A stretch of 50,382 bases of DNA from positions 1 to 50,382 of IMG/VR virus record IMGVR_UViG_3300037634_004340; one strand, given 5' to 3'. Source of the DNA: a virus (Duplodnaviria; Caudoviricetes). Both the position numbers and the translations under genes were made by a program. This document shows, one piece after another, positions 2,650 to 35,800 of this stretch. The first letter of the stretch is position 1. The number at the start of each line of letters is the position of its first letter. The notes beneath the pieces were generated by a model, which saw only the letters and a list, made by a program, of their open reading frames with translations, did no database searches and was not told the origin of the DNA.

Positions 2650-2652
2650 GAC

Positions 2653-4427: not shown

Positions 4428-4933
4428 TAATCTACTACCAAATATTCTACTGCTAAATGTCCTGCATCTGTATTATTAGATCCGTCAAGATCTACAGTTC
4501 TAACATGAAATTTTCCATCTAAACCAGCATTATCATCCTTTAAAACTATAGCTTCTCCAGGGTCTAATATTGAAATAAGAGTTGTTCCTCCAGGAGCCAT
4601 TATCTTTAAAGATTTATTAAGAGCAGCACCCAAAACCGTTGCCGAGTTAAAGGCGTATCCAGTATTTTTTATATATATAAAAGTAGCCGTAGACTCACCG
4701 TCTACTAAGTCTATAGCGTCTGAATCATCTTCTGCTTCTTTGTAATTTACAGTTCTGTCTTTATAACCCTGATTTGCAGCTGTACCCGAATAATTAGTAA
4801 CTGCAGCTGTACCGTTACCACTAAAAGACTTGCCTATTTCACTAGCTATTATATCGTTAGTAATAGAGGTTTCTTCTCCAGCTATTGTTTCAATAGGAGT
4901 AACGCTTACTGAGTATGATATTCTATCAGCCAT
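4427..4933 (-). CDS. Virion structural protein (hypothetical)
   Basis: 168 aa, beta-rich (FIYIKNTG, LDPGEAIVL), translationally coupled within the structural operon. Confidence 0.55.
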   Translation of the reverse strand: MADRISYSVSVTPIETIAGEETSITNDIIASEIGKSFSGNGTAAVTNYSGTAANQGYKDRTVNYKEAEDDSDAIDLVDGESTATFIYIKNTGYAFNSATVLGAALNKSLKIMAPGGTTLISILDPGEAIVLKDDNAGLDGKFHVRTVDLDGSNNTDAGHLAVEYLVVD

Positions 4934-5760
4934 TATGCTTTTCCTTGTTGTGGTGCTTTAGGAGCCATCATACTTGCAAATGAAGCTTGATATTGTCCTG
5001 CTAGCATTTTTAATCTTTCATGAACTCTAGTATAATCAGATGTAATTTTTTGCACTTCTAAAGTTCCTTCTGCTTGTAAATCTTGTACTCTAGCTGTAAA
5101 TTCAGCTACTTTAGCTTGAATTTCTTGAACTCTAGAAGTTAGCATTTCACTATCTTCTTCTGTACTTATCCATGTATTTGTATCAGCCCAATCAGGGGCA
5201 TTCATCAATGGTGAGGCTGGGAGAGTTAACGCTATGCTAGATAAGTTATTTTCTAATGATTTTATACCTGCGTACATAACAACTAAATAATGATATTCTT
5301 CTGGCATATACTGAATAGTTAAGTTATTTTCAGTGATATTATTATCATAACCTATATATTCAACAGAAGCTGTATTACTAACTGTTGCTACAGGTACGAC
5401 TTTAACAACATTTTCTTTTATGTACCATGCTGGATTATGAGCACTTTTATAATGCATACTTGTTGAGTCAGAAATTAAACCAACTAAACTACTTGATATT
5501 CTAGCGCAAGGTAAATCACTCGTACCATTATTTCTAGTAACAGATAATACATCTCCAGTAATAATAACTCCTCCTCCTGTATCAGTACCTACTTTAGAGA
5601 AGAATATTTTCTTATTAGGCATTAAGCCTATTACTTTATTAGTAACATCTTTAACACCATCTTTAAGAAATTGGGCTATCTCGCTCCAATTAGGAGCCGA
5701 TGAACCATCAATGGAAAGACCTGTTAATCCTTCAACTTGTTCTTCAAAAGTTCTTGCCAT
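4933..5760 (-). CDS. Head-tail adaptor/ring (tail tubular A-like) protein
   Basis: QFLKDGVKDV...PAWYI...VEYI...MPEEYHYLVVMYA pattern with a coiled-coil C-terminus; first gene after the capsid cluster. Confidence 0.55.
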   Translation of the reverse strand: MARTFEEQVEGLTGLSIDGSSAPNWSEIAQFLKDGVKDVTNKVIGLMPNKKIFFSKVGTDTGGGVIITGDVLSVTRNNGTSDLPCARISSSLVGLISDSTSMHYKSAHNPAWYIKENVVKVVPVATVSNTASVEYIGYDNNITENNLTIQYMPEEYHYLVVMYAGIKSLENNLSSIALTLPASPLMNAPDWADTNTWISTEEDSEMLTSRVQEIQAKVAEFTARVQDLQAEGTLEVQKITSDYTRVHERLKMLAGQYQASFASMMAPKAPQQGKA

Positions 5761-15245: not shown

Positions 15246-15259
15246 CGGGATACAGTTCT

Positions 15260-15480
15260 CCCCTGAGCACTAAAGTACTTTTTAAAAAATTTTAATTTTA
15301 AATTTCACTTAAGGCCAGTAATAGCTCCCATACCTTTAGCTTATAATAAAACAATTTTTACTGGTTATCGGAGAAAACTCAGTCTACTATTTTGAAGACC
15401 TACAATCCGACTTCTGACCCATTTAGCAGAACCATCTCAGGGGTACTAACTGGGTGATAACTAAATAATAGTTACCAGTG
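15260..15480 (-). ncRNA. Structured leader RNA of the packaging operon (candidate)
   Basis: Long-range CCCCTGAG/CTCAGGGG and ACTGGT/ACCAGT pairings that cross each other, plus internal hairpins; begins just after a promoter-like site. Confidence 0.4.
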
Positions 15481-15485
15481 GGAAT

Positions 15486-15514
15486 AATATACAATGACTT
15501 CTATATTTTAACAA
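15486..15514 (-). promoter_or_regulatory. Putative leftward promoter
   Basis: TTGTTA-N17-TATATT on the minus strand at the start of the structural operon. Confidence 0.55.
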
Positions 15515-15630
15515 AGGTTTTAAAAATAGGAGGATTTTGGTGTATAGAGTTATTATTTACCCTACCCCCCTATCGGGGGGATTATGATATATATAATTAA
15601 GTTATTTTTGATTTCATTTTTATTGTTTTT

Positions 15631-15894
15631 ATGTATAATTATGGAGTTTATATGGCAATAGTCATTGATTGGGCTGAACGTTTTATGAGTCTTGTAGATT
15701 TATATCATGATCAGCATAATGCAGCACCACAGTATAGTTATAAGAGTAGAATAACTAAGACCAAAGTCTTAAGTAAGTACAGTATTAAGATGGAGTTCAT
15801 AGATAATCTAACAGAGATGGCTATACTATGTGATGATCAAGCAGTAAATGATAAGATAGACAAACTCATTCAAAAGTATGAGAAGCAACGTTAA
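15631..15894 (+). CDS. Hypothetical early protein (likely start 15652)
   Basis: First rightward ORF; GGAG RBS precedes the ATG at 15652. Confidence 0.55.
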   Translation: MYNYGVYMAIVIDWAERFMSLVDLYHDQHNAAPQYSYKSRITKTKVLSKYSIKMEFIDNLTEMAILCDDQAVNDKIDKLIQKYEKQR

Positions 15895-16057
15895 CCTTAA
15901 CCTGACCGAAATGTCATTAAACTATTTTTTCCTTATGTGTTTATGTATGTATTAGTACCAACATAGACCCAACATTGTATAAGTAATCTTAATTGGTTTA
16001 TGTTACTTGTATAATTTAGCCTGTCTTAAAGAACCCGATAGGAGTATTCCACCAAAA

Positions 16058-16105
16058 GCAAGATAAAGGTGTACATCTCACCCAAGAGGATAAAATGGGT
16101 CTTGC
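16058..16105 (+). ncRNA. Pseudoknotted RNA motif, copy 1
   Basis: GCAAGA/TCTTGC outer stem; inner hairpin with ACCCAA loop complementary to downstream TGGG; similar to 17241-17307. Confidence 0.45.
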
Positions 16106-16207
16106 AAAGATTTAATTTCTAAGGTAAAACCATTCAGACCTTTTGCAACAATGGACAACACTGATTATGTATTGCAAGGACATAATTAGATAGAAAGGAG
16201 CCTTGCT

Positions 16208-16261
16208 ACTCTTAATGCAGCCTGATGACGGTCACAAGCCCGTGTAATGCAGAGTGGGAGT
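16208..16261 (+). ncRNA. Twister self-cleaving ribozyme (P1 type)
   Basis: ACTCT-TAA-TGCA-GCC...ACGGTCACAAGCCCGT...TGCA-GA-GTG-GGAGT matches the twister consensus: UAA cleavage loop, P2 UGCA/UGCA, L4 UCACAAGC, and a T1 pseudoknot with a compensatory CAC/GUG. Confidence 0.85.
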
Positions 16262-16286
16262 TTATATTTAAATAAACGGAGGTATA

Positions 16287-16466
16287 GTGAAAAGAAAGAT
16301 ATTCTTTACACATTATAAACGGAGAACTGGATCTAGCAAGAATTGTAATAATGCTTGGGAACGAGTATTAATACGTGAGAAGGGTTCTAAAATTAGAGCT
16401 ATTAGAAAAGCATTGATAGCTATTCAAAATGTAGGTAAACAAAAACAATTATCTAAAGAGGTATAA
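16287..16466 (+). CDS. Small basic hypothetical protein (59 aa)
   Basis: GGAGGT RBS, GTG start, stop overlaps the next ATG (TAATG); below the ORF-track cutoff. Confidence 0.55.
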   Translation: MKRKIFFTHYKRRTGSSKNCNNAWERVLIREKGSKIRAIRKALIAIQNVGKQKQLSKEV

Positions 16467-16984
16467 TGACTATTTTAACCAATGGCGCAGTAGTAATTAA
16501 AGCTAAAGAACAATCTTTAGTATTTCCTGAAATTGTGCATGATGATCATAATATTTCATTCGATCATATGCATTTTATTCAAACTAATCCTGAATTACTA
16601 TTATTACCTGTAGGAACACGTATTGCTAAACTCTTCAAATTACCTGATGGTATGGAAAGAGTACAAAGTGCTTTATATGGTCCTAGTGCAGGTGATAAAC
16701 CTATTAAGGAAAGTGAAGTAATTTATGAAAAACGTGTAACATGTACTAAATGTCATTCAGCACGTCGAGGTTATAGCAGAATGGTAGATAAACCTACTAG
16801 GCCTGCTAATAACATTGTAGTTATTGGTATAATAGGTAAAGTAGCATTCACTATCTATGGTACTCAAGCCAATGCTGTTAGCCCTAAAGAACCATGGGAC
16901 AGTGGTTGTACTGATTCTGTTGAAGATTATGAATATTCAAAGAATTTTTGGGCAATACATGCTTTAAGTATGCATGAAAATTAA
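16466..16984 (+). CDS. Hypothetical phage protein
   Basis: 172 aa with motif-like LYGPSAGD, SRMV, TIYG, PKEPWD, FWAIHAL and a CTKC insert. Confidence 0.7.
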   Translation: MTILTNGAVVIKAKEQSLVFPEIVHDDHNISFDHMHFIQTNPELLLLPVGTRIAKLFKLPDGMERVQSALYGPSAGDKPIKESEVIYEKRVTCTKCHSARRGYSRMVDKPTRPANNIVVIGIIGKVAFTIYGTQANAVSPKEPWDSGCTDSVEDYEYSKNFWAIHALSMHEN

Positions 16985-17240
16985 ATCTTTCTTTAGGATA
17001 AATGAGACTACAGTGAGCTGTGTGCATGGCACTGACGCAATAATCAGTAGTATATTTAAAATAATTTATCTTTTAGGATTACAAATCAATAAGCTCTTTA
17101 AGAGGTTAGTCGACGCCTTGATGAGAGCTTAATGATTATGTTGCATAATGTCAAGTTTTGCAAACGCATGTTAATTAGAACACCTGCAGAAGGTAAGTAT
17201 AATTTATCGGGGGAGTGCGAGAATCTTTCCCACAATAAGT

Positions 17241-17307
17241 CCTCTTGCTTATAAAAGCGTATGCATCCTACCCAAGGGTCCTATGGTATAGTTGGGGTGG
17301 CGAGAGG
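17241..17307 (+). ncRNA. Pseudoknotted RNA motif, copy 2
   Basis: CCTCTTGC/GCGAGAGG outer stem; ATCCT-ACCCA-AGGGT hairpin whose loop pairs with downstream TGGG. Confidence 0.45.
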
Positions 17308-17688
17308 CAAGAATTGAGAGGTATGGAATATTGCCTATTAAGACTTCTATACAGTGATATATTCTCATAGAACAGTATAGAGCACCTCTCTTTTAGTTTA
17401 ATCGGACTGCGATTAATACGAGATGGATTATAAAAATGTGTTATTGCATTTTATTATTCTTCTTTTTTTGAAAAGTAGGGGTAGACTACACGGCAGGCCA
17501 AGGCTGAGCATGAACATACCCCGAAAATTTATAAATAGGCATAATTAGTATTGTCATTATATGTAGCGCATTGGTATCTCAATGAACATAATGTGAGCCA
17601 ATACATGAGAATTATGCCTAGAATTATTAAAATACAAAGTAGTTTTAACTACATTTTGTCCACTAATATATATAATAAACTGGACATA

Positions 17689-17724
17689 TTAGGTTACTTT
17701 TTAGGTTACTTTTTAGGTTACTTT
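17689..17724. repeat. Three perfect tandem 12-bp repeats TTAGGTTACTTT
   Basis: Read directly at 17689, 17701 and 17713. Confidence 0.95.
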
Positions 17725-17782
17725 TAGAACGTATCCTTTGGGAAAAACAATGAGCTAATGTAAGAGAATTGTGTCCAGATTT

Positions 17783-18163
17783 AGATGAAAGCGTTATAAT
17801 TAAAGAATAATTAACTTTATTTATAATGACTTAGAAACCTGTGTATTGTACGAAGATTGCAAGCAGGTAATCAGTTAGAGTAGTTGTACTCGCTCCGGTT
17901 ATCAAATGATAAAGAGAACGATTAATCAACGAACTGATGTAGTGTGATAAAAAGACTGATAGTCTTCAACCTTATTAGATGTGTTTACGCCAACTCTCTC
18001 TGCGGGCTGCACATACTTTCAATTAACTGTGATGGTTATAAGCAATGTATTACCTCAGCTAGGTGATATAAGTTTAGAGCGACAGCTTAAAGGAAGGATA
18101 AGGAAGCAATTATGAGAGCGCATTTACAAGTATATCAGAGTCTTGTCTAAGATTCTTTCATCT
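17783..18163 (+). ncRNA. Large (~380 nt) multibranch structured RNA candidate
   Basis: Terminal 9-bp stem AGATGAAAG/CTTTCATCT, nested CTTAGA/TCTAAG and many internal helices; no ORF of 60 aa or more. Confidence 0.55.
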
Positions 18164-18197
18164 TTAACTTTAAGTTGTCAATGTTATTAAAATAAAT

Positions 18198-18297
18198 GGA
18201 GCTTTCATAGAGGAATCATAGAGTTGTTGATTTTCAATTCTACCCAGGATAAAGATGTGTTGATTTTCATATCTCCTATGCTCAAGGTTGAAAGTCC
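18198..18297 (+). ncRNA. Twin-hairpin RNA with identical UUGAUUUU loops
   Basis: TAGAGTTG-TTGATTTT-CAATTCTA and AGATGTG-TTGATTTT-CATATCT, enclosed by CATAG/CTATG and CTTTCA/TGAAAG. Confidence 0.6.
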
Positions 18298-18588
18298 TAT
18301 ATAATTAACGATTTGAAATATGTATACATTAAGTTGAGGGATTACGAGCCCAAGTATACAAAACTTGCTAGCATGCCAAGGGAGAGACTTATGAAATCAC
18401 CGGTGGGTGAGATCCAAGCATGCTAAACATTAACACCATTCTAATGGTGTTCGGCTATGGAGGAAAGTGAGGTGTTCTAACGTATTTCGCTACCTAGGAT
18501 AATAAAAATTCTTTAATGAGGTATATTACCCAGAAAAAGAACCTTAAACCCTCCTCGCTGTGATTTTATATAAAAAAAAAGAGGTGTA

Positions 18589-18714
18589 ATGATAGAATAT
18601 TATATAGCAATTATGATTGGATTTATAGCAGGTTATTTTGTAGCCTGTTTAATGATGATAGCAAAAGGAAATACAAAAATAGATATGGATGTCCATAGCT
18701 GGAGAAATAAATGA
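18589..18714 (+). CDS. Small single-pass membrane protein (41 aa)
   Basis: GAGGTG RBS; MIEYYIAIMIGFIAGYFVACLMMIAK hydrophobic helix. Confidence 0.6.
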   Translation: MIEYYIAIMIGFIAGYFVACLMMIAKGNTKIDMDVHSWRNK

Positions 18715-18881
18715 GACAATTTAAACGAAAAAAAGAAATCCATCATCAACCTTGTGAGAATTATAATTGTATTAATTATTATAATACTTTATATAAGGAT
18801 GCTAATGGTAAGTGTAAGCCTTGTAATATCGTAGAAAAGGCTAAATCTAAAACAACCAATAAGGAGCTAAATGTTAGTTAA
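18711..18881 (+). CDS. Small Cys4 zinc-finger-like protein (56 aa)
   Basis: GGAG RBS, ATGA overlap, C-x4-C-x14-C-x2-C. Confidence 0.5.
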   Translation: MRQFKRKKEIHHQPCENYNCINYYNTLYKDANGKCKPCNIVEKAKSKTTNKELNVS

Positions 18882-19453: not shown

Positions 19454-21370
19454 ATGAATGATATTATATCAATTTATAAACAAGGGCAAAATATACAATT
19501 GCCTAGTAATTTAGCTAATTTTAGAAATGTTACTATTTCAGATAGAGATAGAAGAGAGTATATATGTCAAAATCTAGGAATTATATTAAATTATTATTTA
19601 GGTTGGCATACAAGTACTGCATCTTTTGAAGCCGGAATTATTGCAACAGGTGACATGAATCAGTATCAATTAGAAAAATATAATAGTATTGCACCTATTC
19701 GTATTACTCCTTCATTTAGATTGGCCCCGGGTGAAGCAAAAAGAGTAGCTCAAAGATTAAAGTATGTACCAATGGTATGGTCAAAAGTAAGACATGGTTG
19801 GTATAGTAACTGTGATAGATATATAAAAGCTAATGAAGATCTTATTGTTAAAGATACTCAAACTCCTAGTGTTATAATTAATAAATATAAATTTAGAGGA
19901 AGTAGAAATAACTCCTTTAGAAATAATAATATAGATGTTAATACTGAGTTTTGGAATCTTCAAAGTGAACATTGGGAACAATCTACACAGAGAAGTGAAC
20001 AAAGTAGAATTGAAAATACTTATTATCATAGTAATAGAGATAGAGCATATGAGGATCTTTATTTAAGAGATTTTATTAATCCAAATACAGGAAATAATAA
20101 TTGGAGATATAGTTGGGATAGAAATTCATCTTCAGAATCATCACTTATAAACTTACAACATTATACAATTCAAAGTTTTTGTGCTGATGTGTTCAATTTA
20201 CTTAAAGAATCATTAACAATTAGAAGAAATACTCCTGAAATAGAATATAATGATGAAGAAGATTATACTCAAATGAGAGAGTTTCTTCTTAATCAAATAT
20301 CTGAAATTGATAGATGTAACACAATTGTTGAAAATATAGCAAGTATAAGAGAAGTGATATTAACTAAGTATCGAGGTTCTATTAAAATGTATATGAAATT
20401 TATATTAGAAGAACCACATATTGATATTAGTCATCCTTCTGGTAGCAGTGAGTATTCTTCTGTAACTAGGAATATAAAAGATATTAATGGTAATATTTCT
20501 GATTTCATAGGAGTTATTCAATTTGAATTAAGTCTTATAAATAATAAATTTAGAAGAAGAAATGTTATATTTTGTGGATATAATGATAATTCTCATGTAA
20601 ATCCTGGATTATATAATACAGCTAATCGTGATTCAAGAATAGCTAGAGTTATTAGAGGTATATTTAATTGTTTTACTTTAGATAGTCTCCAAAATAATAC
20701 TTGTCTTAGTGAATATGAACATGATATTATGTCTTCTATTAAAAGATTAGACTATTTAACAATGCTTATTAATATTGTTAGCTGGTATACTGTTTATGTA
20801 CCAGGTAGAACTAATCCTTATAGACATCCAAGACAATTATTCTTTGGTATTCCAAATGATATTCCTGAATGGTATAAAAGTCAGCATGATAGTAGTGTTG
20901 CAGCATGCGAAGCTCTTGTTATGACTGAATATGGTACAGGAGAAGCACGAAATGATAGTGAAACAGATATACTTAGACGTGTTACTGATGATAATTTAAA
21001 AGCATTATTGTTAAATCATTGTCATAATTGTTTTCATAATACTGATTGTCGTGTTAATTCTTATGCAAAAGGGATTGTTTATGGTGACAATGAAGTTGCT
21101 TATCAAGAAGCATTAATAGCACGTGAAGGGGCAATACAAATGCAAGAAGCGCTTGATCCTGGTGTAGCAGCTAGAGAGATTGAAGAAGAATCTGAATTAA
21201 GTCACAGTGAAGTTCAAGAGATTATTGAAGAAATTGTTGATACAGATCCTAGGCCTGCACATAGAAGAGTTGAACAGGTTATAGAATATGATGATCATGT
21301 AGTTCCGATTGAAACTGATCAAGAACGTACAATGAGATTAATGTCCGCCTGGAGTCAGGCAGAAAGGTAA
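19454..21370 (+). CDS. Large protein with a putative divergent E2 (UBC-like) domain and a Cys-rich region
   Basis: Beta-strands, then HVNP...NTCLSEY (Cys417), helices and SWY..Y...TNPY; distal C...CHNC..C; first gene of the JAB/E1/Ubl operon. The E2 call rests mainly on context. Confidence 0.45.
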   Translation: MNDIISIYKQGQNIQLPSNLANFRNVTISDRDRREYICQNLGIILNYYLGWHTSTASFEAGIIATGDMNQYQLEKYNSIAPIRITPSFRLAPGEAKRVAQRLKYVPMVWSKVRHGWYSNCDRYIKANEDLIVKDTQTPSVIINKYKFRGSRNNSFRNNNIDVNTEFWNLQSEHWEQSTQRSEQSRIENTYYHSNRDRAYEDLYLRDFINPNTGNNNWRYSWDRNSSSESSLINLQHYTIQSFCADVFNLLKESLTIRRNTPEIEYNDEEDYTQMREFLLNQISEIDRCNTIVENIASIREVILTKYRGSIKMYMKFILEEPHIDISHPSGSSEYSSVTRNIKDINGNISDFIGVIQFELSLINNKFRRRNVIFCGYNDNSHVNPGLYNTANRDSRIARVIRGIFNCFTLDSLQNNTCLSEYEHDIMSSIKRLDYLTMLINIVSWYTVYVPGRTNPYRHPRQLFFGIPNDIPEWYKSQHDSSVAACEALVMTEYGTGEARNDSETDILRRVTDDNLKALLLNHCHNCFHNTDCRVNSYAKGIVYGDNEVAYQEALIAREGAIQMQEALDPGVAAREIEEESELSHSEVQEIIEEIVDTDPRPAHRRVEQVIEYDDHVVPIETDQERTMRLMSAWSQAER

Positions 21371-21373
21371 GAT

Positions 21374-22312
21374 ATGGATGATAAATTCATAATGGCCCAA
21401 AAAGACTGGGATAAAATTATAGCTTATTCAAAAATGAGTTATGACAAATGGAAAACTGAAATCGGCGGCATGTGTGTCGCCCTTTTCGATGAAAAAAATA
21501 AAATTATGGTTATTTCAGATCCTGTAATTGGTAAACAAGAAGTATCTAGTACTCTTTGTACATTAGATAAGGAATGGCTTGCTGATTATTATGTAGAAAT
21601 GGCTGTAAAATATGGTACAAAAGTTAGATTTGTTTGGTGGCATAGTCATCACACAATGGGTGTAAGTTGGAGTGGTACTGATACTGATACAATGCAAGAG
21701 TTTAATCAAGGTGATTACTCTATGTCTTTAGTAGTTAATTTAGCAGAAAATCATACATTTAGAATAAGCTGGTGGAAACCTACATCTGGATATATTGATA
21801 CTAAATTAAAAGTATTAAAACCTGAATTTCAAGTAACTAAAGAAATGCAAGGAATTTTTGATGAATTAGTTACAAGACCAGCAAAAAGTATTACTAAAAT
21901 TAATACTAATATTTATAATAATGGTTGGAGTAATGCAGGATGGAGAAATCAATATAAACAGCCAGGTAATTATGGTCCAGGTTATGTTGATGCTCAGTTG
22001 ATGGATAGAACACAGACTCTTCAAGAGAAGTTTTGCGATACAATGGAAAAACTTTTAGATGAGGCGTTTACATATCAAAAGAAATGGCCTGATTTTGAGG
22101 AAGAATGGAAAGAAATTATAATAGATGCTGGAAAGCATGATATAGTTATTGAAGAATTTCCTAAATCAGAATTTGTTGAACTTACAGTAAAAGGAGAATT
22201 TCCTGATGCAACAGACTACTTTGAAAGCCCTGACCCTGAACTCTTTCTCACAAGAGGATGTACCGATGGATATGGGAATCCGCTACAGGAAAATCTGTTC
22301 AGAAATAGATAA
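21374..22312 (+). CDS. JAB/MPN+ (JAMM) metalloisopeptidase
   Basis: Intact EIGG...WWHSHHTMGVSWSGTD (E, HxH, S, D) motif. Confidence 0.9.
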   Translation: MDDKFIMAQKDWDKIIAYSKMSYDKWKTEIGGMCVALFDEKNKIMVISDPVIGKQEVSSTLCTLDKEWLADYYVEMAVKYGTKVRFVWWHSHHTMGVSWSGTDTDTMQEFNQGDYSMSLVVNLAENHTFRISWWKPTSGYIDTKLKVLKPEFQVTKEMQGIFDELVTRPAKSITKINTNIYNNGWSNAGWRNQYKQPGNYGPGYVDAQLMDRTQTLQEKFCDTMEKLLDEAFTYQKKWPDFEEEWKEIIIDAGKHDIVIEEFPKSEFVELTVKGEFPDATDYFESPDPELFLTRGCTDGYGNPLQENLFRNR

Positions 22313-22934
22313 ACATCATTACAGCATATTTGGTTGCGGAGCTATAGGTAGTTCCGCAGCTGTATGTCTTGCTAAACATAATGCTAGGCATTTTTATCTT
22401 TATGATAATGATACAGTTAGTCCAGAAAATATAGGTATTAGTATGTTTAGAGAATTTGACATAGGTGAATCTAAAGTTGAATCTCTGAAGGAAATACTTG
22501 AAATAGGTGGAACTAATAGTAAAATACAAGTACAACCTCATAAAGAGTGGTTAGATCAAGATTCCGCCTTTACAAGTTATAAAGATGGACTTAATATTGG
22601 TATTTTATGTTTTGATAATATGTATTCTCGTAAAGAGATTGCAGGTATATGTTTTAGAGATAAGTTTAATTATATAATAGATGCACGTATGGGTCGTGAA
22701 CAGATTCAGTTGTATACTGTTAAAAATATTAAAACTTATGAAAAATATTGGTATCCTGATTTTCAAGCAAGTAGTGATACTTGTGAAGAAAAAGGAACAC
22801 CAGATGTTAGTATGATTTCCGGATCACTTATAACATCACAAATCAGGAAAATTGTTAATAAACAACCTTATCCTGAAGAAGTTTGCTTTCACATTCCTAG
22901 CATGGCGCTAGAATGTAATACCATGGTAAAATAA
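22206..22934 (+). CDS. ThiF/E1-like adenylyltransferase (likely start 22266)
   Basis: GCGAIGS nucleotide loop, YDNDTV..ENI, K, CFDN...R and IIDARMG; candidate thioester Cys in DTCEEK. Confidence 0.92.
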   Translation: MQQTTLKALTLNSFSQEDVPMDMGIRYRKICSEIDKHHYSIFGCGAIGSSAAVCLAKHNARHFYLYDNDTVSPENIGISMFREFDIGESKVESLKEILEIGGTNSKIQVQPHKEWLDQDSAFTSYKDGLNIGILCFDNMYSRKEIAGICFRDKFNYIIDARMGREQIQLYTVKNIKTYEKYWYPDFQASSDTCEEKGTPDVSMISGSLITSQIRKIVNKQPYPEEVCFHIPSMALECNTMVK

Positions 22935-22946: not shown

Positions 22947-23153
22947 ATGCCTAATATACACTTAATGCACAACTCTGATAGCTTTGATCCAACAGATACA
23001 GAAGCTGTAACAGTTGGTGCTCTTAAAACAGAGCTTGGTGTACCTTCCACTTCTAGAGTTAACGTGAATACTGCAGTTGCGCAAGATTCCACCACATTGA
23101 ATGATGGTGATATTGTTGCAGTAGTTACAAAAGACAAAAAAGGTGGAAGATAG
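22947..23153 (+). CDS. Ubiquitin-like (beta-grasp) protein ending GG-R
   Basis: 68 aa; TVGALK helix, VNVN, LNDGDIVAVV, C-terminal KKGGR; AAGGAGG RBS. Confidence 0.85.
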   Translation: MPNIHLMHNSDSFDPTDTEAVTVGALKTELGVPSTSRVNVNTAVAQDSTTLNDGDIVAVVTKDKKGGR

Positions 23154-23212: not shown

Positions 23213-23449
23213 ATGTTAGAAATTAAAAAAGAATATGAAAAAACAATAGAATTTCCGATTAGAGGCAGAATATATAATGTTATTACTAATCAAGGTAATA
23301 TTTATAGAAGATTATATTTTGTAGGTTATAGTAATGGGGTTGCAAAACCTCAATATATTTTTAAAGAATTAAACGGAACTAGAGTAAGTATAAACCCATC
23401 TTATCAAGTAGAAATGTGTGAAACTGACATACCTGATAATATTGTATAA
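23213..23449 (+). CDS. Hypothetical protein
   Basis: 78-aa beta-rich ORF with AAGGA RBS. Confidence 0.6.
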   Translation: MLEIKKEYEKTIEFPIRGRIYNVITNQGNIYRRLYFVGYSNGVAKPQYIFKELNGTRVSINPSYQVEMCETDIPDNIV

Positions 23450-29351: not shown

Positions 29352-29413
29352 ACAGATCGGGTAGTGTAATAGCGCTTTAAATGTAAGTCATTCTTACAGC
29401 CTGGCCTCTGTTT
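29350..29413. terminator. Branched stem-loop at the convergence of the two transcription units
   Basis: AAACAGA/TCTGTTT and CGGGT/GCCTG stems enclose two hairpins (AGTGT/GCGCT and TGTAAG/CTTACA). Confidence 0.5.
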
Positions 29414-32207
29414 ATGTTAAATATGTTTTTGCTGTAGCTTTCTTTCTATGCTGCTCAAGTTTTTCCAAAGCGTCTCTTATTTCTTTTGGTATTAATGCTG
29501 GATTTCCTATTGAACCTTCAAATGCATCTTTCTTTAACTCTTTAGATTCTTTAGTTTGATATAAACCTAATTCATATTGTAATCCTGAACCTATATTGCC
29601 TTGTAAAATACTAGGTAATGTTGAATATAATCCTCTTCCTAAAGCTACATTTAATAATCTAATAGTTTCATAAGCTTTTTTATCATCAGATTTTAATGCA
29701 TAGTCTTCATAACCTGTTAATAGCATTTGTAAAGTATCATCGTCCATATGAGTAAATTCCCATATATTACCTAATGCTAATGCATCTGATACTACAGGAG
29801 CTCCTATAAATGGTAGACCTGTTAAAACACCTTTGCCATAGTAAGCTTTTTTTATATCTTCTTCGTCACCTGTAAAGAGAGCCCATAGTTTATCTATTTG
29901 TTCTTTTACACTATGTTCTACTATATTTCCAAAGTCTAATCCAGTTACTGCTGATGCTATAGCAGGTGCCATGAAATATGTTAAACCCATCTTGTATGCT
30001 TTTTGTGCTCTAGCGCCAGTTATATCGCCTGCTAGTATATCATCACTTGCATTTAATGCTAAATCTTTATTGTATTCTAAGAACTTCATACTATAATGTT
30101 GGAACTGACCTAGTAATCTACCTGCAGGATTAGTTAACCATGAAGCTTTCGCTATATCAGCATAATCAAAATGCATTAATGATACTTTTTTAATAGCATA
30201 ATTTCTAGCTCTTTTAATAATTTCAGCTCTAATTTGTGTATCAGACATACCTTCTTTAGTTAAAGCAGCCTTATAATTAGTAGAGTTATCTAGCTGATTA
30301 TACATCTCATAAAAACCAGTTTTAAATGTAACCTTTCTATTCCAATTTTCAACTTTAGACATCATAAAACCACTTTTACCAGCGAATGCCTTTATTTTAT
30401 CATGTATTCCTGATAATGGAGAAGGTTTTCTAAATTCTATTGTTTCATTATTAGTTATTCGTATTTTCTTTGTAAAGTTTTTACCAACAGTTTGCCCTTC
30501 TACTAGTTCAGGAGGTGCGTCCGTGGAGAATAATATACCAGCCTCGTTCATCATGTCTTCCACTTTACGACTTAAAGTTAAATTATTTTTATAGAATGAA
30601 TTTGATTTAGCCATCATAATAGGGCCAAACTCTACGATATTTAATAGTCCTTGAGTTGCATTTTTAAATGGAGATCTTAAATTGAATCCCAATTTTGAAG
30701 TAAATTCTAACGCCAGAAGACTTCGCATAGCTAATTCAGCTGTTTCATTTTCAAATCCTTTAGAACCTTTCATACGTTTATTCATATCTTGCATCATCTC
30801 AACTGTACCGCTAGCAAATCCATCTAAAGGTTGACCATTTTTAAATAATTCTTTGGCTTGATTTAAAGATTCCCTAGTATATTTATCAGCATGAGAGATC
30901 ATATTAAATCTGTCTATCTCATCGACATATCTTTTTAAAGTGGGAAAGAAATTTCTTGAGTATTCATTCTTAGTATCAACCCCTTTACCTAAATCTACAT
31001 GAGCTCGACTCTTAGCTCTGCCAGATGTATACCCTCTTAATTCTGTGATAGCTTGTTCTACATTGTTAGAATTTGAATATAGGCTTTCAGATACAGCATC
31101 AGATACTCTTTGCAAGTGAGGCATTAAATTGTCTAAATAATCTGTATTTAATAATCTTCGATAATGAGGGAAATATCCTACTACTTTATCTGGTGTAATT
31201 TTTTTCTTTATATTAGTAACTATTTCGTCTAATTCTTTTGTACTATATTTACCAAGCATGCCAGCTCTTATTGAATCGACATAAGCATTTATTCCGCCTT
31301 CTAATACAGTATGCATTTCATTCATTAAATCCACATATTCTATTATAGCGTTACGCATAGAAGCAGATTTTATTTTCTCGCTTAAAATAGGCTGTAAAAC
31401 CTTAGAGCGTATACTTTCATACTTCTCTCTGGTCATCTTGCCTTTCATCATGTCCTTTTTATAGACTTTAGCCTGATCTAACCACTTACCTAAAGATTCT
31501 TGGTGTAACTTAGGGAGAACTTTTTCAACAGTCTCTAGCATTTCATTAAAAACTTTACCCTCGCCTTTAGTATAAAAATCGTCTTCTTTTTTCAAAGCAG
31601 AAGTTAATTTATTTTTTGCTCTAAGTACATTATTATATACATCTAATGAAAGTTTTTCTATATTAGCTTCAAATTCAGTAGCTTTTTTTGTAGCCTGAGC
31701 AACTTGCCTATCAATAGCTATAGCATTAGGCAAAACAGACTTTAATGGTTTAAAATCAGCTCCAAATCCTAATTCAAGCATATTTCTCTTCATATAGTTT
31801 AATATATTATTAAAAGATCTATTATGTCTATTTGTTCTACCTTGATATGCTAAGTTAACATTATGTAGATTGTCTGTAAGAGTAGCTAATTGAGGATTAT
31901 TCCTTGAGATAGAATCTGGTAAATAAAACATGGAACCAAACTTATGTGTAAGCGTTCCCTTTTCTGAAGCACTATTAACTTTAGCTAATTCTCTCCTAAA
32001 TGTTTTAAGTAAGCCTTTAGTATAAGGAATTTCAGCTACTCGCTCCATGCCCATATCGAATATCTTTTCATGGACAGTACGAACAATAGTATCTGTTTCT
32101 TTTCCAAATCTTTTCTGCATAGCTGGATTCTCAGTAAACTCAAGAGCTATTTTAAACATCTCTCCAGCTAAACCTGTTATGTCACAGCCTGGTCCAGTTG
32201 ATCTCAT
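29412..32207 (-). CDS. Large internal virion (DNA ejection) protein
   Basis: 931 aa, helical; LGFNLRSPFKNATQ, ENWNR, FDY, LGQFQHY resemble the C-terminal regions of large ejected proteins; next to the virion RNAP. Confidence 0.6.
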   Translation of the reverse strand: MRSTGPGCDITGLAGEMFKIALEFTENPAMQKRFGKETDTIVRTVHEKIFDMGMERVAEIPYTKGLLKTFRRELAKVNSASEKGTLTHKFGSMFYLPDSISRNNPQLATLTDNLHNVNLAYQGRTNRHNRSFNNILNYMKRNMLELGFGADFKPLKSVLPNAIAIDRQVAQATKKATEFEANIEKLSLDVYNNVLRAKNKLTSALKKEDDFYTKGEGKVFNEMLETVEKVLPKLHQESLGKWLDQAKVYKKDMMKGKMTREKYESIRSKVLQPILSEKIKSASMRNAIIEYVDLMNEMHTVLEGGINAYVDSIRAGMLGKYSTKELDEIVTNIKKKITPDKVVGYFPHYRRLLNTDYLDNLMPHLQRVSDAVSESLYSNSNNVEQAITELRGYTSGRAKSRAHVDLGKGVDTKNEYSRNFFPTLKRYVDEIDRFNMISHADKYTRESLNQAKELFKNGQPLDGFASGTVEMMQDMNKRMKGSKGFENETAELAMRSLLALEFTSKLGFNLRSPFKNATQGLLNIVEFGPIMMAKSNSFYKNNLTLSRKVEDMMNEAGILFSTDAPPELVEGQTVGKNFTKKIRITNNETIEFRKPSPLSGIHDKIKAFAGKSGFMMSKVENWNRKVTFKTGFYEMYNQLDNSTNYKAALTKEGMSDTQIRAEIIKRARNYAIKKVSLMHFDYADIAKASWLTNPAGRLLGQFQHYSMKFLEYNKDLALNASDDILAGDITGARAQKAYKMGLTYFMAPAIASAVTGLDFGNIVEHSVKEQIDKLWALFTGDEEDIKKAYYGKGVLTGLPFIGAPVVSDALALGNIWEFTHMDDDTLQMLLTGYEDYALKSDDKKAYETIRLLNVALGRGLYSTLPSILQGNIGSGLQYELGLYQTKESKELKKDAFEGSIGNPALIPKEIRDALEKLEQHRKKATAKTYLT

Positions 32208-32217: not shown

Positions 32218-32874
32218 TTACTTATGCACTTTCTTTAAAAATTCTTTAGGTATCCCACCTGCTATTCCATAGTTATATACCAGCATATCACTATCATCAT
32301 AAAGAGATTTGCCTCTTAAATCGCTAATTTTTTCCATCTTCTCAAATTTACTTTTAGGGATTTCAAATTCTAAAACAGTCACCTTTTTTCCCTTTTTCCC
32401 CCATATTCTTGCTTCAGCAAAATTATTACTAACCCAAGCAGTTCCTTTGGATAGATCATCCTTTCCTGTTGAAGGATTAAATCTACTATAATCTGAGCCT
32501 ACAAACTTACCTTCTTTGACCATTTTGCCCGAATGCCACTTATCTACCCCTCTATATAAAGTCACCATTTCTTCACCAGCTTCTTTAGCGGCCTTTAAAG
32601 CTCTTTTACCAGCAACAAACTGTCCAATAATAGGAATAGCTGAAGCTCCTGACAATACAGCTTCTCCAAACTCTCCTTCAGCAGCATATAATAATGCATC
32701 CGCTGCATCAGCCACATTCCCATATCCAGGGGTAAAACCAGCAGCCATTAAAGCTGTATGAAGACCTTCAGTGCTAGTATCACTCTCTTGCTTAAAAAGA
32801 TTAGCAATAGTTTTGTCTGGCTCTGCAACTTGTAGCATATTATTAAAAGCTTCTGTGTCTATTTTATCTGGCAT
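32218..32874 (-). CDS. Polymorphic-toxin-like protein: pre-toxin TG domain plus ADP-ribosyltransferase-like C-terminus
   Basis: GFTPGYGNVADAADALLYAAEG...SAIPIIG (PT-TG-like), then TLYRG...WVS...A..W...VLEFEIP (ART R-S strands). Confidence 0.6.
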   Translation of the reverse strand: MPDKIDTEAFNNMLQVAEPDKTIANLFKQESDTSTEGLHTALMAAGFTPGYGNVADAADALLYAAEGEFGEAVLSGASAIPIIGQFVAGKRALKAAKEAGEEMVTLYRGVDKWHSGKMVKEGKFVGSDYSRFNPSTGKDDLSKGTAWVSNNFAEARIWGKKGKKVTVLEFEIPKSKFEKMEKISDLRGKSLYDDSDMLVYNYGIAGGIPKEFLKKVHK

Positions 32875-35800
32875 TATTTAGGGCAAGCTCTTGCAGCTTT
32901 ATTAAACTCATTAAAAGAATCTCTTACTGACCCTGAAGATTTCTGACTCTCTTTTATATCACGGCCTTGCTTTATAAACTTACGCAGCATACTTAATCTA
33001 TATTCACTTAATAATGCTAATGGTTTTATTGAAGCTCCACCAGATGAACCTGCCATTAATGCTAATTCAGGGCTCATGCTATAACCACTTATCTCAGAAA
33101 CACCTTCTTCGCCTATTCCTTTAGTTATTACTTTACCAAGACCCATCTCTGTTAACTTCTGACGAACACCTTCTTGCATAAGATGATAAGATATAGGATC
33201 TAAATAGTTATTTTGCATCATTAACTGATTAGTATAAGATAACGCTGTCTCTAGCTTTTTATAGTCAGGGCCTTTATGATTTAATAGCTTTGTATTTATA
33301 AGATTTCTAAAAAACTCTATATTAGTATCATATTCAGGACCCATTCCAAAGACATCTTTATTAAACACGCCTTTTTCAGTATTTATAGACTCATATCTAT
33401 CCCAAGTATTTACAAGTTTACGACTATATCCAGGAACATTATTAATAATACCGAGTATACCCTGATCATTTGTTGGAATTAATCCAAAATTACCGTCAAA
33501 GAAATTACTATAAGCAGAATAACGCTTAGTTAAGTGCTCTATTGTAAGTTTTAAATTGTTTTTTTCTTGATGATTTGTCTCATTATTAAACTTATCTAGT
33601 AAAAACTTAACAACTCTTTTAAACCTACCAGACGCTTTAGAACTAACAGCTATGGGATTACCGTTATATATACCTATTGTAGTCTCAGCTTTAGTAGGCA
33701 TTGCATATTCTAGTAAAAAAGGCATACCATGATCCCCATAACCTTGATTTAACGCTAAAGCTAAATACTCTTCAACCTCCATAGGATCTTTTTTAGTACT
33801 CATCCTTTTTTTCATCATCTCAGGATTTATCTGAGTCATCTCTTGATATTCAGAAGTTGTGCCCGCACTAAAGTATTCACTATATTCTTGAGCAGTTTCA
33901 GCCTTTAAAGCTGTAACTTCTTTATAGAAATTACTTACATCGCCTGCAGTTGTAAACTTTTGACTTAACTCATGAAGAGTATACCATTGAACGGTCCCTT
34001 CAAGCATATCTTTATCTCTAGAAATATCTACAAACTTTATACCCTCTAAATACTTAGCATCACCTGTTTTTAAGTATTTATCCGGGAGATAGCCTTTTAA
34101 TACAGCTTCTTTTTCTTTAATTAATTCAATTAAAGATTCTATTCTGGCTTTTCTTAAATTCTCAGGAATCTCTTTATTTCTAGCTATATTTCCTATTTGT
34201 CTTTTCCAATATTTAATTATCTTAACATCTGAGTTTACCTTACCTGTTAATTGAGGTATGATTTCACGCATACGATCAGTTAAATTGCCTTCTCCAAATG
34301 ACTCTTTAGAGTAGATTATTTCATTAGCGACTGCCTGCATTTCTTTAAAGCCTTCACCCTGGAGTAAGATATTCCCTTTTCCATTATTACCTAAAGGATC
34401 GTTATGCATTATCTCTCTATAAATTCTTTCTACAACAGAGCCGTGATCACCTCCAGAAGCAGCAGTCATTATACCTTTATCCATAGCACCTTGCACTAAA
34501 GGAGACTCGTTCCACCATCTATACATATATTTGCCAGACGATTTATTGTCACCCCTCTCTCTCATTAACGCTGCATCATATTCCTCTAAAGCCTTCCCAT
34601 ATAACTTATCAGCTGTCTTGTTATATTTAGCCCTAAGTTTTTGATGAGGTTTAAACATTGATTTTACTAATTCATTGTCACCATGTTTAGCTTTTACGTT
34701 TTTATAAATTGTACTCGTCATGTCCTCTAAATGTCCAAAATAAGCATGAGTTATAGACATTATATCTTCATATTTTGCAGGACTACCTTGACCTGTATTA
34801 TCATATACTTCAGTACTTAAAGTTAATAATCTGCCATGCTCAGACATTAAAGTTTTTATAATAGTTCTTTCTTCAGGAGTTAAATCGTATTCTCCTGTAG
34901 GATTATCTTCAGTTTTAGGACCAAATTTTCTAAACAATCTAATTCTACTATTTTGAGGACCCTTAACACTTTGCGCCGTCTTTTGCGCAGATAAACTTGG
35001 AACATCGTCTTTAGATATAGATTTATCCATTATAGGGAAGAGATAATCATTTCTCCAATCCATCATCTTATTTACAATTCTTTGATCGACGCCTTTCCAA
35101 TAATCAATAATAAGCTGGGATTCTAAGGCAGATCTTTCAAAAAAGCTAGCATTGTCATAGTCTACAGATACAGTAAACTCATTCTCTCCATGTGTGTATT
35201 TTAATAAATCTTTACGCCCAGTTGTTTCATTAGTAGTGCCCAGCTCAGATAAATGGTTTACTAGCCTAACAGTTTTCTGTACAAGTCCTATGCCTTTTTT
35301 AAGCACTCTATTATTACCATCAAATGTATTCCAACCAGCATTTTCTCTCCCAGAATTAGATAAACTAAGTTCAGGAACCTTTCCTTCATAATTACCTGTA
35401 TTTACAGTATTTACCCAGTGCCGTTGTACTCTTTGATTGTGTTCCCAGGTACCTCTATTCATACCCCAAAAGAAGTCAATTTCATCTACATCGTAATCAC
35501 CTTCAAATATATTAAGAACATCAAAGTCATTAGCTATAGCTGTGTTTCCATGGTCTTTACCTAGGAATCCTTTAAGTCTAAGTATAGCTAAATCATTAGG
35601 CGTAGTCCTTGGATAACGTGTAGTCATTATACCTACAGCTAAGTCTTCCCCTAAGGCTTTATTTAATACTTCAATTTCTGAATGCAATAAGCCTAAGTTT
35701 CCATCAATAGTAGTTTTCTCCCAGAAATCTCTAAAGCTTAACTTAAGTCTATCGCCTTGCTTTTTCAGCAGAGCATCGTATTCGTTATACATTTTCTCAA

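What the first reader, a model, noticed from the sequence alone, without database searches (positions are those of the whole stretch)
19454..21370. Large cryptic E2-like protein that may also choose the substrate
Seen: HVNP...NTCLSEY (Cys417, codon at 20702), followed by amphipathic helices, W..Y...NPY and a C...CxxC..C cluster, preceded by about 300 aa of unrecognised sequence. Known: prokaryotic E2s carry an HP-type motif before the catalytic Cys, then helices. Inference: a divergent E2 fused to targeting and zinc-binding domains that could act as a built-in E3.
Basis: inference. Interest (0 to 1): 0.7.

Follow-up and report, generated by a model that had tools for sequence, protein, structure and literature searches.

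The report
Phage-encoded giant E2-like conjugating enzyme
A 638-residue phage protein of no known family probably contains a very divergent ubiquitin-conjugating (E2-like) core and sits in a conserved four-gene set with a ubiquitin-like protein, its activating enzyme and a trimming protease, which suggests that some phages carry their own protein-tagging system.

Summary
No Pfam, PHROG, PADLOC or NCBIfam model matches it.

It belongs to a phage-only family. I assembled 70 sequences, 42 of them from the 44 viral contigs found.

- **Gene context:** the gene always lies with a JAMM protease (21374-22312), a 220-aa ThiF-type E1 (22272-22934) and a 65-70-aa ThiS-family Ubl ending in Gly-Gly (22947-23153).
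- **Conserved residues:** Cys417 is invariant (67/67). It follows an [H/F]-P motif by 10-35 residues, and most members read HPY..GxVCLDxY.
- **Fold:** an AlphaFold model (mean pLDDT 80.8) places Cys417 after a helix plus beta-meander. An unbiased structure search lists 22 E2 enzymes among its top 50, but at weak Z (4.2-5.6). Foldseek finds nothing.
- **Profile comparison:** against bacterial E2s the match is weak (P 0.005; 0 of 120 shuffles reach it), but it aligns HP with HPN and Cys417 with the catalytic Cys.

Verdict: X is a divergent E2-like enzyme of a phage-borne Ubl system (about 0.7). The "built-in E3" idea is untested. The Cys cluster looks like one four-Cys zinc site, although Cys526 stays invariant where the other three are lost.

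The parts
19454..21370 (+). X: 638-aa protein of a new phage-only family, proposed E2-like Ubl-conjugating enzyme
   Evidence: ORF. No Pfam, PHROG, PADLOC or NCBIfam hit. Family of 70 sequences. AF2 mean pLDDT 80.8.
19454..20245 (+). N-terminal region (res 1-264), mostly helical. Res ~105-235 is an insertion specific to the window's clade.
   Evidence: Secondary structure. The stretch res 105-236 holds 114-133 residues in the window's clade and 31-32 in most other rows. Conserved T85, P92 and G93. Function unknown.
20246..20863 (+). UBC-like core (res 265-470): helix 272-291, beta-meander 296-377, loop, helix 395-404, Cys417 loop, helices 419-446, NPY loop
   Evidence: All 10-residue pLDDT blocks from 271 to 470 are 80 or more. 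VIA-wide rows for E2 enzymes span model ~270-465. hhalign versus E2.
20600..20605 (+). Asn383-Pro384, the window's version of the family's [H/F]-P motif (counterpart of the E2 HPN motif)
   Evidence: At column 383: H 34, F 19, R 6, Y 4 of 66. P384 is 64/66. hhalign aligns it with HPN of the cyanobacterial E2s.
20702..20704 (+). Cys417 codon (TGT), proposed catalytic cysteine
   Evidence: Invariant in 67/67 rows. Aligned with the E2 catalytic Cys by hhalign.
20906..21049 (+). Cys cluster C485, C523, C526, C532 (H528 only in the window's clade): probable four-Cys zinc site in a helical subdomain
   Evidence: C485, C523 and C532 are each 59/66; C526 is 68/68. Seven rows lack the other three but keep C526. 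Helices 482-493, 512-523 and 533-543. Zinc binding is inferred.
21029..21031 (+). Cys526 codon: second invariant cysteine
21317..21364 (+). C-terminal helix (res 622-637) carrying the conserved M..WA motif, after an acidic low-confidence linker (res ~580-616)
   Evidence: M630 57/63, W633 62/63, and A at position 634 in 52/63 (the window has S). pLDDT is below 50 for res 580-616 and 89 for the 621-630 block.
21374..22312 (+). JAMM/MPN+ metalloprotease (312 aa; JAB domain in the N-terminal ~135 aa)
   Evidence: Motif HSHHTMGVSWSGTD at residue 90. HxHx7SxxD is present in 44 of 44 homologues. PADLOC JAB 3.1e-4. No Pfam hit at 0.01.
22272..22934 (+). Minimal ThiF-type E1 (about 220 aa; the longest ORF starts at 22206 and overlaps the JAB gene)
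   Evidence: Pfam ThiF 1.6e-19, 70.5 bits. PADLOC E1-E2 (Cap2) 1.7e-11 and BilD 5.2e-6. NCBIfam ThiF/MoeB hits all fall below their cut-offs. Invariant GCGAIGS, D115 and Cys171 in 33 rows. The start at 22272 is inferred from homologue lengths.
22947..23153 (+). Ubiquitin-like protein (68 aa, ThiS family) ending ...KDKKGG-R
   Evidence: Pfam ThiS 25.7 bits, above the cut-off of 22.5. G66 and G67 are invariant in 25 rows. 25 of 30 homologues stop exactly after GG.

Best explanation
X is a very divergent, oversized E2-like enzyme and the conjugating component of a phage-encoded ubiquitin-like modification system. All steps below are inferred.

1. The JAMM protease removes the single residue after Gly-Gly of the 68-aa Ubl.
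2. The 220-aa ThiF-type E1 adenylates the Ubl C-terminus, probably holding it as a thioester on its invariant Cys171.
3. The Ubl passes to Cys417 of X.
4. X transfers it to lysines of target proteins without a separate E3, as bacterial BilB and Cap2 do.

The N-terminal ~265 residues, the zinc-stabilised helical subdomain and the conserved C-terminal helix would supply partner or target binding. The JAMM protease may also reverse conjugation. The cassette sits at the head of the replication/recombination module, directly upstream of Sak4. Targets are unknown.
For: **Shown here**

1. *Context.* X homologues were found in 44 viral contigs.
   - A JAB gene follows in 44 of 44, and all 44 carry HxHx7SxxD.
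   - A ThiF E1 follows in 42 of 44. The other two contigs end first.
   - A Ubl was found in 30 of 44. In the other 14, X starts within 445 nt of the contig end.
   - The Ubl sits after E1 in the window's clade and just before X in the other clade, so the four genes travel together despite rearrangement.
   - 25 of 30 Ubls stop exactly at GG.

2. *Residues.* Cys417 is 67/67 and P384 is 64/66, preceded by H or F in 53/66. Most members read [H/F]PY[IV]..x(8-20)..G[TN]VC[LF]D.[YF]. By recall, this resembles the E2 HPN...Cys signature.

3. *Fold.* In the AF2 model (70-row alignment, mean pLDDT 80.8, blocks 271-470 all at least 80), the element order is helix, beta-meander, loop with N-P, Cys, helices.
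   - By my recall, about 11 more rows are RWD or UEV domains of the same superfold.

4. *Profile-profile.* The X core (res 265-480, 67 of 70 rows) against 106 cyanobacterial PF00179 E2s gave score 24.0, P 0.0051.
   - The register places HP on HPN and Cys417 on the catalytic Cys.
   - Controls: reversed E2 P 0.16; E1 P 0.69; Ubl P 0.43.
   - 0 of 120 column-shuffled E2 profiles reached 24.0 (mean 13.1, sd 2.6, max 21.3).

Against: - No sequence model of any E2 family matches X or any of 70 family members, even at E up to 10. PADLOC and NCBIfam also find none.
- Foldseek against the PDB gives no hit at E of 1e-3 or better (best 0.21), and no E2 appears in the rows shown.
- The hhalign probability is only 7%.
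- In the window's own protein the His of the motif is Asn, and the Pro-to-Cys spacing is 32 residues. By recall, classical E2s have about 8.
- The Ubl is of the ThiS type and the E1 resembles ThiF/MoeB. These are also the parts of sulfur-carrier pathways.
- By recall, archaeal SAMP and Thermus TtuB systems conjugate without any E2, so an E2 is not logically required.
Confidence: 0.7

Rival explanations
1. Sulfur-carrier pathway. The Ubl is a ThiS/MoaD-type sulfur carrier activated by the ThiF-like E1. X is the terminal, Cys-dependent sulfur-transfer or sulfur-insertion enzyme, for example acting on a nucleotide, DNA or a cofactor. The JAMM protease releases a Ubl adduct, as in the CysO/Mec+ and QbsE/QbsD systems (both recalled).
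For: - The Ubl passes the Pfam ThiS cut-off (25.7 against 22.5 bits).
- The E1's best NCBIfam matches are ThiF and MoeB, all below cut-off.
- X has two invariant cysteines and a Cys cluster.
- The cassette lies among DNA-metabolism genes.
- A plasmid operon found with the E1 as query is ThiS-ThiF-YcaO-TfuA, so such E1s do serve sulfur chemistry.
Against: - No rhodanese, cysteine desulfurase, PP-loop or other sulfur-transfer family was seen in the 35 (PHROG) and 20 (Pfam) window ORFs scanned.
- The only fold and profile signals for X point to UBC/RWD.
- The E1 also matches the E1 parts of Cap2 and BilD models.
Confidence: 0.12
2. X has the UBC/RWD/UEV superfold but is not a catalytic E2. It would be a scaffold or adaptor, or the main substrate of an E2-independent E1-Ubl system, as in archaeal SAMPylation. 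Cys417 would be structural or redox-active.
For: - By recall, E2-less Ubl conjugation is known.
Against: - Cys417 is invariant in 67/67 rows over sequences that are only 13-20% identical to the window's protein. It lies in the position that hhalign equates with the E2 catalytic Cys and is flanked by an E2-like motif.
- By recall, non-catalytic UEV and RWD domains lack this Cys.
Confidence: 0.1
3. The resemblance to UBC is chance. X is an unrelated replication or takeover protein that merely neighbours the Ubl genes.
For: - Foldseek and all HMM libraries are silent.
- hhalign probability is 7%.
Against: - Strict co-occurrence with JAB, E1 and Ubl across two clades with different gene order.
- 22 of 50 unbiased structural rows are E2s.
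- 0 of 120 shuffles reach the real hhalign score, and the register matches both motifs.
Confidence: 0.05

Closest known systems
BilABCD (bacterial ISG15-like) systems, E2 BilB (Type I and II); passages of PMC10557695 read
   Same: - Four parts: Ubl, E1, E2 and a JAB protease that trims the Ubl C-terminus.
- No E3.
- The E1 lacks a UFD.
[quoted passage not shown] X also has a variable 10-35-residue stretch before Cys417.
   Different: - Bil is a bacterial anti-phage defence system; this cassette is on phage genomes only. There were no relatives in two scans of 185,579 species' genomes.
- X is 490-640 aa with extra N- and C-terminal domains and matches no PADLOC Bil model.
- The E1 here is a single 220-aa domain, whereas BilD has tandem inactive and active adenylation domains plus a CYS domain.
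- The Ubl is of the ThiS type.
CBASS type II Cap2 (E1-E2 fusion) with Cap3 (JAB)
   Same: - The E1 matches the E1 part of many PADLOC 'E1-E2' models (best 1.7e-11).
- A JAB partner is present.
   Different: - There is no CD-NTase gene and no E1-E2 fusion. Compare the Nostoc plasmid operon CD-NTase - Cap2 - JAB.
- Here a free Ubl is the moiety transferred.
Eukaryote-type UBC domain (Pfam PF00179), including the E2/E3 hybrid UBE2O
   Same: - Helix plus beta-meander, then the Cys loop, then helices.
- hhalign register on HPN and Cys.
   Different: - No HMM match.
- The motif is [H/F]P without the Asn, and it is N-P in the window.
- The motif-to-Cys spacing is longer.
- There are about six strand segments, and an extra helix (395-404) in the window's clade.
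Lambdoid/T1 phage tail-assembly Ubl (TAPI) with a JAB-NlpC protein (TAPK); passages of PMC1779556 read
   Same: A phage-borne Ubl with a C-terminal Gly, plus a JAB peptidase.
   Different: That pair lies in the tail-assembly cluster and has no E1 or E2. The present cassette has both and lies in the replication module.
ThiS/MoaD-ThiF/MoeB sulfur-carrier pairs and archaeal SAMP/UbaA
   Same: A ThiS-family Ubl ending in GG and a small ThiF-type E1 with a conserved loop Cys.
   Different: Those systems have no E2-like partner (recalled). Here a UBC-like protein with an invariant Cys is an obligate neighbour.

Membership tests
UBC/E2 superfamily (structural) | UBC fold: N-terminal helix, antiparallel beta-meander, then the active-site loop and helices | tested here: inconclusive
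UBC/E2 superfamily (structural) | Conserved catalytic Cys in the loop after the beta-sheet | tested here: met
   Cys417 is 67/67. It lies between strand 365-377 and helix 419-430. hhalign aligns it to the E2 Cys. Catalysis itself was not tested.
Classical UBC (Pfam PF00179 UQ_con) | Match to the family HMM | tested here: not met
   No PF00179 or Prok-E2 hit in X or in any of 70 members at E up to 10. hhalign probability 7%, P 0.005.
Classical UBC (Pfam PF00179 UQ_con) | HPN tripeptide about 8 residues before the Cys (feature recalled) | tested here: not met
   The window has V-N-P 32 residues before the Cys. The family has [H/F]-P-[Y/F] 10-35 residues before it.
Prokaryotic Ubl-conjugation operon (E1 + E2-like + JAB + Ubl; Iyer 2006 class 6d / Bil) | Co-located Ubl with C-terminal GG, E1-like, JAB and E2-like genes | tested here: met
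   JAB in 44/44 loci, E1 in 42/44 and Ubl in 30/44; the misses are at contig ends.
BilABCD | Match to Bil protein models; E1 with tandem inactive and active adenylation domains | tested here: not met
   Only the E1 hits a PADLOC BilD model, weakly (5.2e-6). X has no hit. The E1 is 220 aa with a single ThiF domain.
CBASS type II (Cap2/Cap3) | CD-NTase gene and an E1-E2 fusion protein | tested here: not met
   No CD-NTase among the scanned window ORFs. E1 and X are separate genes with JAB between them.
E3 ligase domains (RING, HECT, RBR) | Match to a RING, HECT or RBR model, or an eight-ligand cross-brace zinc motif | tested here: not met
   No such Pfam hit. Only four conserved Cys (C485, C523, C526, C532), three of which are dispensable in 7 of 66 members.
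ThiS/MoaD sulfur-carrier pathway | ThiS-type carrier plus ThiF-type adenylyltransferase | tested here: met
   ThiS 25.7 bits, above the cut-off. ThiF Pfam 70.5 bits.
ThiS/MoaD sulfur-carrier pathway | Sulfur donor or acceptor enzymes (rhodanese, desulfurase, ThiG/MoaE/CysM/TtuA-like) nearby | tested here: inconclusive
   None found in the ORFs scanned, but many window ORFs have no annotation and host enzymes could serve.
UBC/E2 superfamily (functional) | Ubl~Cys thioester formed by transfer from E1 | not testable with these tools
   Needs biochemistry.

The most novel reading that the evidence does not exclude
X is a self-contained E2/E3 hybrid that relays the Ubl between two cysteines. Cys417 in the UBC-like core would pass it to Cys526, which stays invariant (66 of 66 informative rows) even in the seven members that have lost the other three ligands of the zinc site. 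X would then tag host or phage replication or defence proteins early in infection.

The same X-JAB-E1 gene order in crAss001 (gp78-gp77-gp76) and in Flavobacterium phage FpV4 would make phage-run ubiquitin-like tagging a widespread and so far unrecognised trait of Bacteroidota phages, including the most abundant human-gut phages.
Probability: 0.15. Interest if true: 0.9.

Novelty: new variant of a known kind. Interest (0 to 1): 0.72.

Why it matters
Ubiquitin-like conjugation in bacteria is currently known as a host defence against phages (type II CBASS, Bil, Bub). A complete Ubl-E1-E2-like-JAB set carried by the phages themselves, fixed at the head of their replication module and conserved over sequences only 13-20% identical, would turn that picture around. 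Phages would be tagging proteins for their own ends, whether takeover, counter-defence or control of replication.

X would also be a new and very divergent branch of the E2 superfamily. It has built-in extra domains and no E3, which bears on how E2s choose substrates.

The same gene order in crAss001 and FpV4, both cultured phage-host pairs, would make the question testable at the bench.

Tried and rejected
- **First AF2 run** on 5 sequences: mean pLDDT 53, unusable.
- **Sequence searches that found nothing.**
  - tblastn of X against 50,697 phage records: no match.
  - phmmer of X against PDB sequences gave only chance hits, and the A4 profile gave only coiled-coil noise.
  - ESM Atlas search of res 265-480: no usable hit.
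- **hhalign of the X core against single sequences** (Nostoc Cap2 N-terminus, Crinalium E2): probability 0.1.
- **hhalign of the X family against FpV4 420-aa and crAss001 gp78:** probability below 0.1. Their homology to X rests only on BFVD Foldseek hits (an unnamed 420-aa entry at E 1.9e-4; crAss-like entries at probability 0.6-0.8) and on shared gene order.
- **Complex prediction** (E1 + Ubl 1-67 + full X as partner): score 0.00 in two runs, controls not run, verdict 'no answer'. It is neither support nor evidence against.
- **Genome scans** for X in prokaryote genomes: none found, so there is no host clue from prophages.
- **Other searches.**
  - Promoter and terminator scan of 15-24 kb: counts at shuffle level.
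  - tRNA scan: none.
  - tblastn of the 2833-aa ORF against phages: no match.
- **Literature.** Seven searches listed no paper describing an E1/E2-like/JAB/Ubl cassette in a phage replication module. The search was too loose to be informative. Supplementary tables of the Bil and Bub papers, which list operons, could not be seen and might include phage or prophage cases.
Full report
**What the window is.** The 50-kb window is a phage genome segment.
- One arm carries portal, large and small terminase and tail-fibre genes.
- The other carries Sak4, a primase-helicase, a Holliday-junction resolvase and a Cas4-like exonuclease.
- The tools treat it as a virus record.
- The finding's ORF (19454-21370, +, 638 aa; here called X) opens the rightward replication arm.

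**Observation.**
- HVNP lies at 381-384 and NTCLSEY at 415-421, with Cys417 encoded by TGT at 20702-20704.
- SWYTVYVPGRTNPY lies at 443-456.
- The Cys cluster is C485 plus C523-x2-C526-x5-C532.
- No Pfam, PHROG, PADLOC or NCBIfam model matches X.
- tblastn against 50,697 phage records finds nothing.

**The neighbours.** The three genes downstream explain why an E2 was suspected.
- 21374-22312 encodes a 312-aa protein with a perfect JAMM motif, HSHHTMGVSWSGTD, and weak PADLOC JAB hits.
- 22206/22272-22934 encodes a ThiF-family E1: Pfam 1.6e-19, PADLOC Cap2-type 'E1-E2' 1.7e-11 and BilD 5.2e-6.
- 22947-23153 encodes a 68-aa protein that passes the Pfam ThiS cut-off (25.7 against 22.5 bits) and ends ...KDKKGG-R.

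**The family.**
- A word-indexed search found 4 homologues.
- An exhaustive phmmer search of 1.84 billion representatives found 29 at E of 0.001 or better. I dropped two low-complexity multi-stretch hits (P0017, P0018) and one 74-aa fragment (P0016).
- None of the 21 proteins scanned from that list carries a Pfam domain, apart from noise in the two dropped proteins.
- Pattern scans of IMG/VR gave 2 + 42 = 44 loci. All 44 hold an X ORF by an HMM of the family.
- I aligned 70 sequences as A4: 28 proteins plus 42 locus ORFs. L001 and L016 were left out as duplicates.
- Two scans of one genome for each of 185,579 prokaryote species found no relative. So far the family is phage-only.

**Synteny.**
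- JAB follows X in 44 of 44 loci, and every copy has HxHx7SxxD.
- The E1 follows in 42 of 44. L028 and L035 end inside or just after JAB.
- Sak4 follows in 42 of 44.
- A Ubl was found in 30 of 44. In the other 14, X begins within 445 nt of the contig end, so the upstream DNA is missing.
- In the window's clade (window, L001, L002) the Ubl lies after the E1 and carries one extra residue after GG (R or K). In the other clade it lies immediately upstream of X.
- 25 of the 30 locus Ubls stop exactly after GG. The other five are L001 and L002 (one extra residue) and L016, L023 and L040 (2-11 extra residues).
- The four genes therefore stay together through a rearrangement and down to 13-20% identity in X.
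- The E1 alignment (33 rows) has invariant GCGAIGS, D115, R139 and a loop Cys171.
- The Ubl alignment (25 rows) has an invariant GG.

**Conservation in X.**
- Cys417 is 67/67, W444 67/67, P455 67/67, G465 66/66 and C526 68/68. Two of the C526 rows are fragments aligned doubtfully, which leaves 66 informative rows.
- P384 is 64/66, Y448 65/67 and Y474 64/67.
- The residue before P384 is H in 34 and F in 19 of 66. The window has N.
- Most members read [H/F]PY[IV][SA]-x(8-20)-[YW]G[TN]VC[LF]D.[YF].
- The Pro-to-Cys gap ranges from 10 to 35 residues, and is 32-35 in the window's clade. The Cys417-to-W444 gap is 26 in 66 of 67 rows.
- By recall, the pattern resembles the HPN...Cys signature of E2s, with a longer and variable loop.
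- In the passages of the Bil preprint that I read, Type II BilB also has an extended variable loop before its catalytic Cys, proposed to pick targets.

**Structure.**
- With 5 sequences AlphaFold2 failed (pLDDT 53).
- With A4 it gave mean pLDDT 80.8 and pTM 0.64. Every 10-residue block from 271 to 470 is at 80 or more.
- The order of elements is: helix 272-291; strands 296-306, 309-318, 322-325, 337-340, 351-362 and 365-377; a loop with N383-P384; helix 395-404; a loop with Cys417; helices 419-430 and 434-446.
- Foldseek against the PDB found nothing (best E 0.21).
- Even so, 22 of its 50 rows are E2/UBC enzymes by title. They are seven UBE2O entries, a Plasmodium E2, Cap2 residues 7-153, UbcH5b/c, Ubc9, UbcH10, Ube2W, UBE2E1, UFC1, Ube2K, UBE2J2, E2S, 1yrv and 4ccg.
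- By my recall, about 11 more rows are RWD or UEV domains of the same superfold (Knl1, Listerin twice, Yih1, Spc24/25 twice, VPS37A, FTS and others). The other 17 rows are unrelated.
- The E2 rows cover model residues ~270-465.
- The tool warns that a single domain of a protein longer than 400 residues scores low.
- I read the fold evidence as pointing to UBC/RWD but not proving it.

**Profile comparison.**
- I obtained bacterial E2s by tblastn of the E1 against plasmids. One hit was a Crinalium plasmid with a Bil-like operon containing an annotated E2.
- Its relatives, most of them carrying PF00179, came from two searches.
- hhalign of the X core (res 265-480; 67 of 70 rows, the three N-terminal fragments dropped) against 66 close E2s gave P 0.018.
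- Against 106 E2s it gave score 24.0, P 0.0051 and probability 7%. The default local alignment covers X 381-435 against E2 90-118, putting the X 'hP' on HPN and Cys417 on the catalytic Cys.
- Controls: reversed E2 profile P 0.16 (score 14.9), E1 profile P 0.69, Ubl profile P 0.43.
- 0 of 120 column-shuffled E2 profiles reached 24.0 (mean 13.1, sd 2.6, max 21.3).
- The signal is weak by HH-suite standards, but it is a single prespecified test with the expected register.

**The rest of the protein.**
- Res 1-264 is mostly helical. Res ~105-235 is an insertion confined to the window's clade (114-133 residues against 31-32 elsewhere).
- Res 480-560 is helical and holds C485, C523, C526 and C532, which I take to be one four-Cys zinc site (inference).
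- Seven of 66 members (L027, L028, L032, L034, L040, L041, L044) have lost C485, C523 and C532 but keep C526. C526 may therefore do more than bind zinc.
- No RING, HECT or RBR model matches.
- After an acidic low-confidence linker comes a C-terminal helix with a conserved M..WA motif (M630 57/63, W633 62/63). It could be a docking peptide.
- A complex prediction of E1 + Ubl + X returned no verdict. I do not count it either way.

**Mechanism proposed (all steps inferred).**
1. JAMM trims the residue after GG.
2. The E1 adenylates the Ubl and loads it on Cys171.
3. The Ubl moves to Cys417 of X.
4. X conjugates it to targets without an E3. JAMM may also deconjugate.

Targets are unknown. The fixed position next to Sak4 and the replication genes suggests replication, recombination or host-takeover proteins.

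**Rivals.**
- *A sulfur-carrier pathway.* The Ubl is of the ThiS type and the E1 is ThiF/MoeB-like. A related plasmid E1 sits in a ThiS-ThiF-YcaO-TfuA operon. Against it, no sulfur-transfer family appears among the scanned ORFs, and the only fold signal for X is UBC-like.
- *A non-catalytic RWD/UEV-like adaptor or substrate.* The invariant Cys argues against this.
- *Chance resemblance.* The synteny and the shuffle control argue against this.

**Wider distribution (seen in passing).**
- The E1 has distant relatives (24-29% identity) in 72 phage records. Most are Flavobacterium psychrophilum phages and crAss-like Bacteroides phages, annotated as 'thiamine biosynthesis protein'.
- In FpV4 and crAss001 the E1 is preceded by a JAMM protein and then by a 420- or 444-aa hypothetical protein (crAss001 gp76, gp77, gp78). 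This is the same order as X-JAB-E1, again in the replication module.
- BFVD Foldseek links X to seven unnamed viral proteins at E of 1e-3 or better, one of 420 aa, and more weakly to crAss-like proteins.
- hhalign sees no sequence similarity to these proteins.
- No GG-ending small ORF lies within 5 kb of either triad.

**Novelty.**
- Seven literature searches listed no description of such a phage cassette.
- The 2006 survey of prokaryotic Ub-like systems mentions phages only for the tail-assembly Ubl-JAB pair (passages).
- I saw the Bub preprint only as outline and abstract and the Bil preprint only as passages. Supplements were closed.
- I rate X a new variant of a known kind: an E2-like enzyme of a new, oversized, phage-borne family.

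**Verdict.** The E2-like interpretation is supported at about 0.7. The 'built-in E3' part is open.

Noticed in passing
L046 (crAss001) 1998-5669; L045 (FpV4) 2536-5606: The same gene order (hypothetical 420-444 aa, then JAMM protease, then ThiF E1) occurs in the replication modules of crAss001 (gp78-gp77-gp76) and Flavobacterium phage FpV4. The two hypothetical proteins share a GYMHSH motif. No GG-ending small ORF lies within 5 kb.
   Followed up: partly
window 22947-23153 versus L003-L040 upstream of X: The Ubl gene changes place between clades. It lies after the E1 with one extra residue after GG in the window's clade, and directly before X ending exactly at GG in the other clade. The JAMM protease is kept in both.
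   Followed up: yes
window 21029-21031 (Cys526): Seven of 66 family members have lost three of the four clustered cysteines but keep Cys526, which is invariant.
   Followed up: partly
window 21317-21364: A C-terminal helix with a conserved M..WA motif follows an acidic disordered linker in nearly all family members. It may be a docking peptide.
   Followed up: no
window 32874-41375 (-): A 2833-aa ORF with no PHROG hit, only a chance Pfam hit, and no tblastn match in 50,697 phage records. A 931-aa ORF (29412-32207, -) is also unannotated.
   Followed up: partly
window 15250-18870: About 3.6 kb between the two divergent gene arms holds only short ORFs (the longest is 172 aa at 16466-16984). There are no tRNAs, and promoter-like sites are at shuffle level.
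   Followed up: partly
window 23213-23449: A 78-aa ORF between the Ubl and Sak4 is conserved in L001 and L002 (phmmer 8e-29 and 7e-25) but was not found in the other clade. Its function is unknown.
   Followed up: no
L049 5099-5676 (Crinalium plasmid): The Bil-like operon used as the E2 source carries two tandem, near-identical Ubl-like ORFs. One ends ...AEGGY and the other ...YVEVS.
   Followed up: no
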